Source of the DNA: Mustelus asterias
Lineage: Eukaryota
Assembly (NCBI RefSeq): GCF_964213995.1
Contig: NW_027590773.1
Coordinates: 124,001-180,042 of the forward strand
Reading direction: 5' to 3'
Length of the DNA stretch: 56,042 nucleotides
In this document: positions 10,102-14,597 of the stretch, piece after piece
Position numbering within the stretch: position 1 is the first letter of the stretch
Layout of the letters: each line of letters opens with the position of its first letter
Made by a program: the position numbers and the translations under genes
The notes under the pieces: generated by a model
What the model saw: the letters and a program-made list of their open reading frames with translations, nothing else
Database searches by the model: none
Told to the model about the DNA's origin: nothing

Positions 10102-13100
10102 ATATGTTACAGAGCAGTAATCCAGGGGAACTGGATTAATTGTTAGATTACACAGTGATATGTTACAGAGCAGTAATCCAGGGGAACTGGATTAATTGTT
10201 AGATTACACAGTGATATGTCACAGAGCAGTAATCCAGGGGAACTGGATTAATTGTTGGATTACACAGTGATATGTCACAGAGCAGTAATCCAGGGGAACT
10301 GGATTAATTGTTAGATTACACAGTGATATGTCACAGAGCAGTAATCCAGGGGAACTGGATTAATTGTTGGATTACACAGTGATATGTTACAGAACAGTAA
10401 TCCAGGAGAACTGGATTAATTGTTAGATTACACAGTGATATGTTACAGAGCAGTAATCCAGGAGAACTGGATTAATTGTTAGATTACACAGTGATATGTC
10501 ACAGAGCAGTAATCCAGGGGAACTGGATTAATTGTTAGATTACACAGTGATATGTTACAGAGCAGTAATCCAGGAGAACTGGATTAATTGTTAGATTACA
10601 CAGTGATATGTTACAGAGCAGTAATCCAGGAGAACTGGATTAATTGTTAGATTACACAGTGATATGTCACAGAGCAGTAATCCAGGGGAACTGGATTAAT
10701 TGTTAGATTACACAGTGATATGTTACAGAGCAGTAATCCAGGAGAACTGGATTAATTGTTAGATTACACAGTGATATGTCACTGAGCAGTAATCCAGGGG
10801 AACTGGATTAATTGTTAGATTACACAGTGATATGTTACAGAGCAGTAATCCAGGGGAACTGGATTAATTGTTAGATTACACAGTGATATGTTACAGAGCA
10901 GTAATCCAGGGGAACTGGATTAATTGTTAGATTACACAGTGATATGTCACAGAGCAGTAATCCAGGGGAACTGGATTAATTGTTAGATTACACAGTGATA
11001 TGTTACAGAGCAGTAATCCAGGGGAACTGGATTAATTGTTGGATTACACAGTGATATGTTACAGAGCAGTAATCCAGGAGAACTGGATTAATTGTTAGAT
11101 TACACAGTGATATGTCACAGAGCAGTAATCCAGGGGAACTGGATTAATTGTTAGATTACACAGTGATATGTTACAGAGCAGTAATCCAGGGGAACTGGAT
11201 TAATTGTTGGATTACACAGTGATATGTCACAGAGCAGTAATCCAGGGGAACTGGATTAATTGTTAGATTACACAGTGATATGTTACAGAGCAGTAATCCA
11301 GGGGAACTGGATTAATTGTTAGATTACACAGTGATATGTTACAGAGCAGTAATCCAGGGGAACTGGGTTAATTGTTAGATTACACAGTGATATGTTACAG
11401 AGCAGTAATCCAGGGGAACTGGATTAATTGTTAGATTACACAGTGATATGTCACAGAGCAGTAATCCAGGGGAACTGGATTAATTGTTAGATTACACAGT
11501 GATATGTCACAGAGCAGTAATCCAGGGGAACTGGATTAATTGTTAGATTACACAGTGATATGTTACAGAGCAGTAATCCAGGGGAACTGGATTAATTGTT
11601 AGATTACACAGTGATATGTCACAGAGCAGTAATCCAGGGGAACTGGATTAATTGTTAGATTACACAGTGATATGTCACAGAGCAGTAATCCAGGGGAACT
11701 GGATTAATTGTTAGATTACACAGTGATATGTTACAGAGCAGTAATCCAGGGGAACTGGATTAATTGTTAGATTACACAGTGATATGTTACAGAGCAGTAA
11801 TCCAGGGGAACTGGATTAATTGTTAGATTACACAGTGATATGTTACAGAGCAGTAATCCAGGGGAACTGGATTAATTGTTGGATTACACAGTGATATGTT
11901 ACAGAGCAGTAATCCAGGGGAACTGGATTAATTGTTAGATTACACAGTAATATGTTACAGAGCAGTAATCCAGGGGAACTGGATTAATTGTTGGATTACA
12001 CAGTGATATGTTACAGAGCAGTAATCCAGGGGAACTGGATTAATTGTTAGATTACACAGTGATATGTTACAGAGCAGTAATCCAGGGGAACTGGATTAAT
12101 TGTTAGATTACACAGTGATATGTTACAGAGCAGTAATCCAGGGGAACTGGATTAATTGTTAGATTACACAGTGATATGTTACAGAGCAGTAATCCAGGGG
12201 AACTGAGTTAATTGTTAGATTACACAGTGATATGTTACAGAGCAGTAATCCAGGGGAACTGGATTAATTGTTAGATTACACAGTGATATGTCACAGAGCA
12301 GTAATCCAGGGGAACTGGATTAATTGTTAGATTACACAGTGATATGTCACAGAGCAGTAATCCAGGGGAACTGGATTAATTGTTAGATTACACAGTGATA
12401 TGTTACAGAGCAGTAATCCAGGGGAACTGGATTAATTGTTAGATTACACAGTGATATATTACAGAGCAGTAATCCAGGGGAACTGGATTAATTGTTAGAT
12501 TACACAGTGATATGTCACAGAGCAGTAATCCAGGAGAACTGGATTAATTGTTAGATTACACAGTGATATGTCACAGAGCAGTAATCCAGGGGAACTGGAT
12601 TAATTGTTGGATTACACAGTGATATGTTACAGAGCAGTAATCCAGGGGAACTGGATTAATTGTTAGATTACACAGTGATATGTTACAGAGCAGTAATCCA
12701 GGGGAACTGGATTAATTGTTAGATTACACAGTGATATGTTACAGAGCAGTAATCCAGGAGAACTGGATTAATTGTTAGATTACACAGTGATATGTTACAG
12801 AGCAGTAATCCAGGGGAACTGGATTAATTGTTAGATTACACAGTGATATGTTACAGAGCAGGAATCCAGGAGAACTGGATTAATTGTTGGATTACACAGT
12901 GATATGTTACAGGGCAGTAATCCAGGGGAACTGGATTAATTGTTAGATTACACAGTGATATGTTACAGAGCAGTAATCCAGGGGAACTGGATTAATTGTT
13001 AGATTACACAGTGATATGTTACAGAGCAGTAATCCAGGGGAACTGGGTTAATTGTTAGATTACACAGTGATATGTTACAGAGCAGTAATCCAGGGGAACT

Positions 13101-14597
13101 GGATTAATTGTTAGATTACACAGTGATATGTTACAGAGCAGGAATCCAGGGGAACTGGATTAATTGTTGGATTACACAGTGATATGTTACAGAGCAGTAA
13201 TCCAGGGGAACTGGATTAATTGTGAGATTACACAGTGATATGTTACAGAGCAGTAATCCAGGGGAACTGGATTAATTGTTGGATTACACAGTGATATGTT
13301 ACAGAGCAGTAATCCAGGGGAACTGGATTAATTGTTAGATTACACAGTGATATGTTACAGAGCAGTAATCCAGGGGAACTGGATTAATTGTTAGATTACA
13401 CAGTGATATGTTACAGAGCAGTAATCCAGGGGAACTGGATTAATTGTTAGATTACACAGTGATATGTCACAGAGCAGTAATCCAGGGGAACTGGATTAAT
13501 TGTTAGATTACACAGTGATATGTTACAGAGCAGTAATCCAGGGGAACTGGATTAATTGTGAGATTACACAGTGATATGTTACAGAGCAGTAATCCAGGGG
13601 AACTGGATTAATTGTGAGATTACACAGTGATATGTTACAGAGCAGTAATCCAGGGGAACTGGATTAATTGTTGGATTACACAGTGATATGTTACAGAGCA
13701 GTAATCCAGGGGAACTGGAGTAATTGTTAGATTACACAGTGATATGTTACAGAGCAGTAATCCAGGGGAACTGGAGTAATTGTTAGATTACACAGTGATA
13801 TGTTACAGAGCAGTAATCCAGGAGAACTGGATTAATTGTTGGATTACACAGTGATATGTTACAGAGCAGTAATCCAGGGGAACTGGATTAATTGTTGGAT
13901 TACACAGTGATATGTCACAGAGCAGTAATCCAGGGGAACTGGAGTAATTGTTAGATTACACAGTGATATGTTACAGAGCAGTAATCCAGGGGAACTGGAT
14001 TAATTGTTAGATTACACAGTGATATGTTACAGAGCAGTAATCCAGGGGAACTGGATTAATTGTTGGATTACACAGTGATATGTTACAGAGCAGTAATCCA
14101 GGGGAACTGGATTAATTGTTAGATTACACAGTGATATGTTACAGAGCAGTAATCCAGGAGAACTGGATTAATTGTTAGATTACACAGTGATATGTTACAG
14201 AGCAGTAATCCAGGGGAACTGGATTAATTGTTAGATTACACAGTGATATGTTACAGAGCAGTAATCCAGGGGAACTGGATTAATTGTTAGATTACACAGT
14301 GATATGTTACAGAGCAGTAATCCAGGGGAACTGGATTAATTGTTAGATTACACAGTGATATGTTACAGAGCAGTAATCCAGGGGAACTGGATTAATTGTT
14401 GGATTACACAGTGATATGTTACAGAGCAGTAATCCAGGGGAACTGGATTAATTGTTAGATTACACAGTGATATGTTACAGAGCAGTAATGCAGAGGAACT
14501 GGATTAATTGTTAGATTACACAGTGATATGTTACAGAGCAGTAATCCAGGGGAACTGGATTAATTGTTAGATTACACAGTGAAATGTCACAGAGCAG
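10102..14597. repeat. 56-bp minisatellite, 80 copies, carrying the RSS heptamer CACAGTG
   Basis: Consensus CACAGTGATATGTTACAGAGCAGTAATCCAGGGGAACTGGATTAATTGTTAGATTA. First heptamer at 10151 and last at 14575, which is exactly 79 x 56 nt apart. Confidence 0.98.

What the first reader, a model, noticed from the sequence alone, without database searches (positions are those of the whole stretch)
10102..14597. An 80-copy satellite of cryptic RSSs ~9 kb downstream of a functional TCR V gene
Seen: nearly every 56-bp unit has the perfect heptamer CACAGTG (one CACAGTA noticed near 11943), followed by ATA and in the same orientation as the V1 RSS. After exactly 12 nt comes GCAGTAATC (5/9 of ACAAAAACC, keeping A6 and A7). 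After 22 nt comes AGGGGAACT, or AGGAGAACT in some units (6/9 to the V1 nonamer ACAAAAACT). A frequent T>C variant creates a second heptamer, CACAGAG, identical to that of V1. The spacing 10151 to 14575 is exactly 79 x 56, so there is no net indel. Known: RAG cleaves cryptic RSSs that retain CAC, and the 12/23 rule applies. Inference: the array could be a RAG sink or loading platform, a partner for inversional joins with upstream V 23-RSSs, an amplified ancestral RSS, or a locus-boundary instability hotspot. The chance of a given 56-mer containing the heptamer on either strand is roughly 0.7%, so coincidence is possible. The nonamers are weak.
Basis: partly seen in the sequence, partly recalled or inferred. 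Interest (0 to 1): 0.75.

Follow-up and report, generated by a model that had tools for sequence, protein, structure and literature searches.

The report
Roaming minisatellite from shark TCR locus
This 80-copy repeat beside a shark T-cell-receptor gene does carry the seven-letter core of the immune gene-cutting signal, but the same repeat occurs over 2,000 times in the genome, also on scaffolds with no consensus signals, so it is likely an ordinary expanding passenger repeat, possibly the decayed remnant of a real signal, rather than a working part of the immune system.

Summary
The array is real: 80 units of 56 bp without indels, 79 with CACAGTG. The nonamers are weak (-2.7 to -9.1 bits against a median of 16.6 for 45 real V signals); 6-24% of unrelated CACAGTG sites score as well. 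It is not unique: 2,193 exact unit matches genome-wide; 70 arrays on 65 contigs share its 3' junction. Eleven carrier scaffolds hold no consensus RSS, and RSS clusters on three other chromosomes lack it. Its older form is a degenerate 4-5-unit minisatellite at a fixed place between divergent V genes, behind a CTCF-like motif; there the heptamer is not better kept than other 7-mers. The amplified unit has the best hairpin and a poorer nonamer. None of 13 independent 5' junctions starts at an intact CAC. Verdict: likely a passenger VNTR spread by segmental duplication. Descent from a decayed RSS (D-like head, 22-nt spacer) is suggestive, about 25%. Low-level cryptic cutting is plausible but untested.

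The parts
276..1198 (+). V1: intact TCR-type V gene (leader 276-327, intron, V exon 892-1198)
   Evidence: open spliced frame, Pfam V-set 9e-15, 96-97% paralogues on four other contigs
1199..1237 (+). V1 23-RSS, CACAGAG-23-ACAAAAACT
   Evidence: sequence
3498..3862 (+). V2, V gene cut off before its YYC and RSS; everything to the right is non-V mosaic DNA
   Evidence: V-set match to profile position 68; homology to three paralogous stretches stops at 3843-3862
4630..6674 (+). separate 52-bp minisatellite, linked to the 56-mer at two other loci (L030, L103); not significantly similar to it
6654..10067 (+). multi-copy left flank; homology to its three fetched homologues ends at 10067
   Evidence: contigs of 3 public runs leave the window at 10067 into the same other sequence as L030
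10065..10104 (+). 40-bp piece copied from 14896-14935, bridging flank and array with 3-nt microhomologies; junction unique in the assembly
10102..14597 (+). 56-bp VNTR, 80.3 units; each unit has CACAGTG, a weak nonamer at 12 nt and at 22 nt, and an 8-bp hairpin; longer than any of the 84 complete arrays measured in fetched stretches (median 12.2, max 76.6 units; some loci counted twice)
14598..14945 (+). decayed LINE reverse-transcriptase scrap (KFADD motif; CR1/L2-type label recalled), the ancestral 3' neighbour of the repeat
   Evidence: translation with stops; present behind old and new arrays; intact relatives run in from upstream
14588..18000 (+). start of a segmental-duplication block, 96-99% identical in many copies, that carries the array; parts of the window as far as 39000 recur on RSS-free scaffolds

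Best explanation
The array is a variable-number tandem repeat that likely grew from an old, degenerate minisatellite of the TCR alpha/delta V region and was likely carried around as a passenger on a segmental duplication, with no selected role for RAG. Shown: the older 4-5-unit form sits at a fixed place between divergently oriented V genes, 3' of a CTCF-like motif and 5' of a LINE scrap; homogenised copies with the same flanks range from about 4 to 80 units; they head one duplication block that is joined to many different left flanks. Inferred: one unit variant with a perfect 8-bp hairpin took over by slippage and unequal exchange; the block then spread inside the V region and to scaffolds of another chromosome; in this window a break repaired by template switching (40-bp templated piece) removed the CTCF-like head and joined the array to an unrelated flank. 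The heptamer rides along; it may be cut at a low, unselected rate like any cryptic site.
For: 2,193 exact 31-mer matches, none on C1-C37; 70 arrays with one 3' junction on 65 contigs, 26 with V evidence; 11 carrier scaffolds among C38-C67 with no match to two consensus-RSS patterns, while RSS clusters on C7, C22, C24 have no array. Old copies about 960-980 bp from an opposite-strand V exon or about 1,445 bp from a same-strand V exon, also on the 20.4-Mb V chromosome C71; covered by contigs of other coded organisms. CACAGTG intact in 22 of 44 distinct diverged units, other 7-mers 0-29, mostly 11-29. AGGGGAACT in 1,038 of 1,266 units and absent from the top-1000 predicted nonamers, whereas four old variants are listed. 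Hairpin -6.4 kcal/mol, z -2.4 to -2.9; median -2.3 in 21 distinct old units, 1 with the perfect stem. 0 of 13 5' junctions start within 3 nt of an intact CAC.
Against: The repeat's older form lies in an antigen-receptor locus, so its RSS look is less easily dismissed than elsewhere. CACAGTGAT is among the best heptamer-spacer starts in SARP-seq (PMC9723617). The 12-nt reading has exactly 4 mismatches, the limit of the 'strong RSS' filter in PMC11153149, and only 6% of background sites score as high. One of six 3' junctions (L101 group) ends in CACA microhomology and fits a cut at CAC. Heptamer identity in old units is slightly above the rest (0.87 vs 0.82). Junctions were curated by hand from part of the copies. 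No lymphoid reads were available, so somatic use is untested.
Confidence: 0.72

Rival explanations
1. Fossil signal (compatible with the best explanation): the unit descends from a real 22/23-RSS, perhaps the 3' signal of a decayed D segment, that was stacked and then decayed.
For: Old units carry AGGAGAACT, AAGAGAACT, AGAAGAACT or AGGAAAACT about 22 nt after the heptamer, all in the top 1,000 of 262,144 predicted nonamers. D-like segments here have a 22-nt 3' spacer. The head of the old element reads GTTTTTGT, 3 nt, CACTGT, a G-rich core, CACATTG and aligns to a D cassette at p 0.0005-0.02 against shuffles. True stacked 23-RSS arrays with a 61-bp unit exist in this V region.
Against: 56-mer against 61-mer: p 0.04-0.56 by null, 0.11 or more with dinucleotide shuffles; 0.15 for the best of 47 units. 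Against 45 V RSSs p 0.23. D flanks give no blast hit and are mostly not significant; whole-head p 0.03-0.70; the core score is reached by 0.8-4% of random windows; the resemblance was picked by eye. No intact CTCF + 12-RSS relative. No V coding end precedes the first unit. The 'nonamer' is also the hairpin loop.
Confidence: 0.25
2. RAG-driven hotspot: RAG cuts the array in thymocytes or germ cells, joins V 23-RSSs to it by inversion, and so drives the duplications of the locus.
For: RAG-like germline joining is reported in sharks (PMC2193156 abstract); cryptic sites recombine at low rates regardless of RSS likeness (bioRxiv 2026.09.01.748595 abstract); arrays sit at many duplication junctions; borderline 12-RSS.
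Against: 0 of 13 5' junctions CAC-precise, 1 of 6 3' junctions compatible; the cluster at +3 to +9 is not significant (scan p 0.34). The window's own junction lies just after the heptamer and has a templated insert. No RAG-type 5-bp target duplication was seen by eye at the junctions listed.
Confidence: 0.1
3. Regulatory VNTR: the repeat tunes the CTCF-like site or the V promoters beside it.
For: Old copies keep a fixed place behind CCACCAGAGGGCG in the gap between divergent V genes.
Against: This window's copy has lost the CTCF-like head and lies 9 kb from V1 behind a broken V2; unit number varies from about 4 to 80; many copies lie far from V genes.
Confidence: 0.07
4. RAG sink or loading platform selected to concentrate recombinase at the locus.
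For: 79 consensus heptamers with AT in 4.5 kb.
Against: RAG1 binds DNA mainly through the nonamer, and RAG2 through H3K4me3 (PMC9723617, PMC12711392 passages); the amplified nonamer has G at position 5, predicted to disrupt binding; no array at other RSS clusters and many on RSS-free scaffolds.
Confidence: 0.04
5. Assembly artefact: the length or the left junction is mis-assembled.
For: The junction occurs once and no listed public contig bridges it with 31 letters on both sides (table cut, contigs only).
Against: Units show ordered variant patterns with no indel; arrays of 57-77 units occur on other contigs; the unit is deeply covered in 4 of 4 runs.
Confidence: 0.04

Closest known systems
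Minisatellites/VNTRs at segmental-duplication and CNV breakpoints (general class, recalled; PMC4090240 and PMC3486850 seen as search listing only)
   Same: Short-unit tandem array, copy number 4-80, homogenised variants, found at duplication junctions
   Different: The unit holds a consensus RSS heptamer and its older form lies in an antigen-receptor locus
Cryptic RSSs (PMC12711392, PMC9723617, PMC11153149)
   Same: Consensus heptamer with AT, partial nonamer; would be expected to be cut at a low rate
   Different: Tandemly repeated and multi-locus; activity not measured; majority nonamers are outside the top-1000 list
Stacked 23-RSS arrays (61-bp unit) behind one V family of this genome (earlier notes e1-9586413, e1-9524918)
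   Same: Head-to-tail heptamer-bearing units of about 60 bp in the same V region
   Different: Those keep ACAAAAACC at 23 nt and follow a V coding end; this one has neither, and homology is not significant
Templated insertions from microhomology-mediated template switching (MMBIR/TMEJ; PMC8421209 seen as listing only; mechanism recalled)
   Same: 40-bp piece copied from nearby DNA with 3-nt microhomologies at a unique junction
   Different: Inferred from one assembly junction; the pathway was not tested

Membership tests
Bona fide RSS | Heptamer starting CAC, consensus CACAGTG | tested here: met
   79 of 80 units
Bona fide RSS | A-tract nonamer at 12+-1 or 23+-1 | tested here: not met
   4-6/9; PWM -2.7 to -9.1 bits against median 16.6; 39 of 45 real V signals have 8-9/9
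Bona fide RSS | Abuts a V, D or J coding segment | tested here: not met
   Each heptamer follows the previous unit; no V hit at the array
Bona fide RSS | Cleaved by RAG under the 12/23 rule | not testable with these tools
   No lymphoid reads; RIC model files not available
Cryptic RSS | CAC plus partial nonamer above background | tested here: inconclusive
   6% (12-nt), 11% and 24% (22-nt) of 90 background CACAGTG sites score as high; only the minority AGGAGAACT is in the top-1000 list
Cryptic RSS | Junctions precise at CAC | tested here: not met
   Inherited junctions only: 0 of 13 5', 1 of 6 3' compatible; somatic junctions untested
Stacked RSS array / RSS-derived repeat | Unit homologous to a real RSS and its flank | tested here: inconclusive
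   Not significant against V or 61-bp units; suggestive against a D core only
VNTR minisatellite | Head-to-tail units of 10-60 bp, variable copy number among loci | tested here: met
   56-bp unit, about 4-80 copies
VNTR minisatellite | Length polymorphism among individuals | not testable with these tools
   Public data were short contigs only
Segmental-duplication passenger | Long flanking block over 1 kb and over 90% identical at many loci | tested here: met
   14588-18000 at 97.5-98.7% in 8 loci over its full length, and partly in others
Retrotransposon with internal VNTR (SVA-like) | Defined 3' end with tail and target-site duplication | tested here: not met
   Homology runs on for kilobases past the LINE scrap; the 40-bp repeat is part of the shared block and is copied to the left edge only here

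The most novel reading that the evidence does not exclude
A decayed D segment in the shark TCR alpha/delta V region left a stacked 22-RSS that turned into a self-amplifying satellite, exported over 2,000 cryptic recombination signals to another chromosome, and still offers RAG-cleavable targets that help reshape a V region spanning about 15 Mb.
Probability: 0.1. Interest if true: 0.75.

Novelty: new member of a known kind. Interest (0 to 1): 0.3.

Why it matters
As an ordinary VNTR it matters little, though its history can be read unusually well: old degenerate copies, homogenised copies and expanded copies all survive, and the variant that spread has the better hairpin and the worse nonamer. 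It also marks a duplication block that broke into a very large shark TCR V region. If it proved to descend from an RSS, or to be cut in thymus or germ line, it would show recombination signals escaping as satellite DNA and would give a direct test of whether RAG remodels shark germ-line genomes beyond joined Ig genes.

Tried and rejected
Mobile element with 40-bp target-site duplication: rejected, the right-hand 40-mer belongs to the shared block. Junction clustering near the heptamer: 5 of 13 at +3 to +9, binomial p 0.016 but scan p 0.34 once the window is free; the apparent +1 junction (L049) was merged with L103, which shares its flank. Minus-strand RSS: the one CAC has no nonamer. Homology of 56-mer and 52-mer: p 0.45-0.60. 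Rfam on the window: 0 matches. Public runs: no RNA holder listed; only contigs could be laid, with no joints on the window junction. PDB search gave only generic V domains, one a TCR alpha chain. No earlier scan note near the window or by sequence. Literature: searches returned no paper on this repeat or on an RSS-bearing shark satellite; searches served for background; subscription papers are not held. PMC7515734 passages did not bear on promoter CTCF sites. RIC scores could not be computed; a PWM from 45 local V signals was used instead, and it has no 12-RSS training set. Rows dropped: only units with at most 50/56 identity and at most 8 gaps were counted (44 of 112); background sites in arrays, real RSSs, CA-rich runs and near-duplicates were removed (90 left); ancestral junctions and duplicated copies of one junction were left out of the 13 + 6 count.

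Full report
Observation. The array is as described: period 56, 80.3 copies at 10102-14597, 80 full units without indel, CACAGTG in 79, CACAGTA at 11943, and 19 CACAGAG. V1 has an open leader-V frame and CACAGAG-23-ACAAAAACT on the same strand; its expression is not shown. V2 at 3498-3862 is cut off. The organism is inferred to be a shark from the repeat landscape and the V/D cassettes; I did not try to name it.

Signal quality. From 86 V loci in fetched DNA, 67 had a YYC motif and 45 distinct RSSs were extracted; 39 of 45 match ACAAAAACC at 8-9 of 9. On a nonamer matrix from these, real signals have a median of 16.6 bits (minimum -0.2). The array scores -5.4 (GCAGTAATC, 12 nt), -9.1 (AGGGGAACT, 22 nt, 66 of 79) and -2.7 (AGGAGAACT, 11 of 79); 6%, 24% and 11% of 90 unrelated CACAGTG sites score as high. 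In PMC12711392 (abstract, first third of Results, Table S2 searched for 12 nonamers) AGGAGAACT is among the top 1,000 predicted nonamers; GCAGTAATC, AGGGGAACT and both exact-23 readings are not. In favour of some activity: CACAGTGAT ranks near the top in SARP-seq (PMC9723617, abstract and two Results sections), and the 12-nt reading has four mismatches, the limit of a 'strong RSS' filter in PMC11153149 (passages). Each unit is thus a borderline cryptic site, not an RSS.

Distribution. A 31-mer of the unit matches 2,193 times, first on contig C38. Seventy arrays on 65 contigs share the 3' junction to a LINE scrap, and the block behind it is 96-99% identical across copies. Twenty-six of the 65 contigs have V evidence (the V search scored 150 of 1,730 candidates). 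For 36 of the other 39 I fetched up to 10 kb and found no V; one of them, C395, has a D-like segment elsewhere. Eleven carriers lie among C38-C67, small scaffolds listed between a 50-Mb and a 44-Mb contig, so probably pieces of a chromosome other than the 20.4-Mb V chromosome C71 (inferred from order). Two consensus-RSS patterns find nothing on C26-C68, while RSS clusters on C7, C22 and C24 have no array. The repeat follows descent and duplication, not antigen-receptor loci in general.

History. A diverged form exists in many copies (300 candidates, 40 scored), including on C71. It is a 4-5-unit degenerate minisatellite between a CTCF-like motif (label recalled) and the LINE scrap, about 960-980 bp from an opposite-strand V exon or about 1,445 bp from a same-strand V exon. 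Contigs from other coded organisms cover it, one over 609 letters. Among 44 distinct diverged units CACAGTG is intact in 22, in the range of other 7-mers; mean identity is 0.87 against 0.82. Old units have A-rich variants at the 22-nt site; expanded arrays have AGGGGAACT in 1,038 of 1,266 units. The amplified unit folds an 8-bp hairpin around that very site (-6.4 kcal/mol, z -2.4 to -2.9); 71 of 81 window sites and 602 of 1,267 fetched units have the perfect stem, against 1 of 21 distinct old units (counts and distinct units are not like for like). That the hairpin drove the expansion is inference.

The window's junction. The left flank matches three other loci up to 10067 and then departs; public contigs continue there as L030 does. 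Forty bases copied from 14896-14935 bridge flank and array with 3-nt microhomologies, and the junction is unique in the assembly. This fits template switching (mechanism recalled). It falls just after a heptamer, not before CAC.

RAG footprint. Because RAG-like germ-line joining is reported in sharks (PMC2193156, abstract), inherited junctions are a fair test. Of 13 independent 5' junctions none starts within 3 nt of an intact CAC (0.9 expected by chance); of six 3' junctions one ends in CACA microhomology and is compatible; a cluster at +3 to +9 has scan p 0.34. Five more loci added no new junction type. The sample is partial and hand-curated. Somatic use could not be tested, and cryptic cutting is poorly predicted by sequence (bioRxiv 2026.09.01.748595, abstract).

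Origin. Earlier scan notes pointed to real stacked RSSs; I found them (61-bp unit behind a V), but the 56-mer does not align to them significantly. D-like segments here have a 22-nt 3' spacer, four old nonamer variants are in the top-1000 list, and the old head resembles a D cassette (p 0.0005-0.02). Against this, flanks do not align, whole-head p is 0.03-0.70, the core score occurs in 0.8-4% of random windows, and no intact relative was found. I put RSS descent at about 25%.

Verdict. Likely a passenger VNTR from the TCR V region, amplified and dispersed by segmental duplication (0.72). It works like an ordinary minisatellite and fails RSS membership on nonamer and coding flank. Searches found no description in the held library. 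Interest 0.3; the fossil-and-still-cut reading has probability about 0.1.

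Noticed in passing
G000:C71 4.5-19.4 Mb and many unplaced contigs: TCR-type V genes and RSSs spread over about 15 Mb of a 20.4-Mb chromosome-scale contig in both orientations, interleaved with D-like segments; a very large V region.
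   Followed up: partly
L127-L138: Thirty D-like segments with a 5' 12-RSS; the 12 read have a 3' RSS with a 22-nt, not 23-nt, spacer.
   Followed up: partly
L122-L126: True stacked 23-RSS arrays, 61-bp unit, up to about 6 copies, directly behind one V family.
   Followed up: partly
L023, L034, L037-L040, L065, L069, L075, L079, L080: One V family has a CTCF-like motif 24-27 nt behind its nonamer; several of its RSSs have short spacers.
   Followed up: partly
L080:7090-7150 and paralogues: CTCF-like motif followed by GTTTTTGT, 3 nt, CACTGT and a G-rich core: possibly a decayed D segment in the gap between divergent V genes.
   Followed up: partly
window 4630-6674; L030; L103: The 52-bp minisatellite travels with the 56-mer; in L030 the two are fused through a 5-nt microhomology.
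   Followed up: partly
window 17660-17910: TATA-like box, short exon-like stretch and splice donor inside the duplicated block; related short motifs recur at 22810, 34080, 35550, 36225, 37490. No Rfam hit and no zinc-finger motif in the window. Gene not identified.
   Followed up: no
window 22800-38100: Nested internal duplications of 350-1,140 bp at 80-90% identity; 36995-39000 recurs at the start of C37.
   Followed up: partly
L022, L074: C2H2 zinc-finger motif runs (6 and 5) lie among V genes near arrays.
   Followed up: no
L101, L102, L106, L107: Array joined to LINE sequence through CACA microhomology: the only junction compatible with a cut at CAC.
   Followed up: partly
G000:C24 52.55-52.83 Mb, C7 140.65-140.69 Mb, C22 53.0-53.1 Mb: Clusters of consensus 23-RSSs, probably other antigen-receptor loci.
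   Followed up: no
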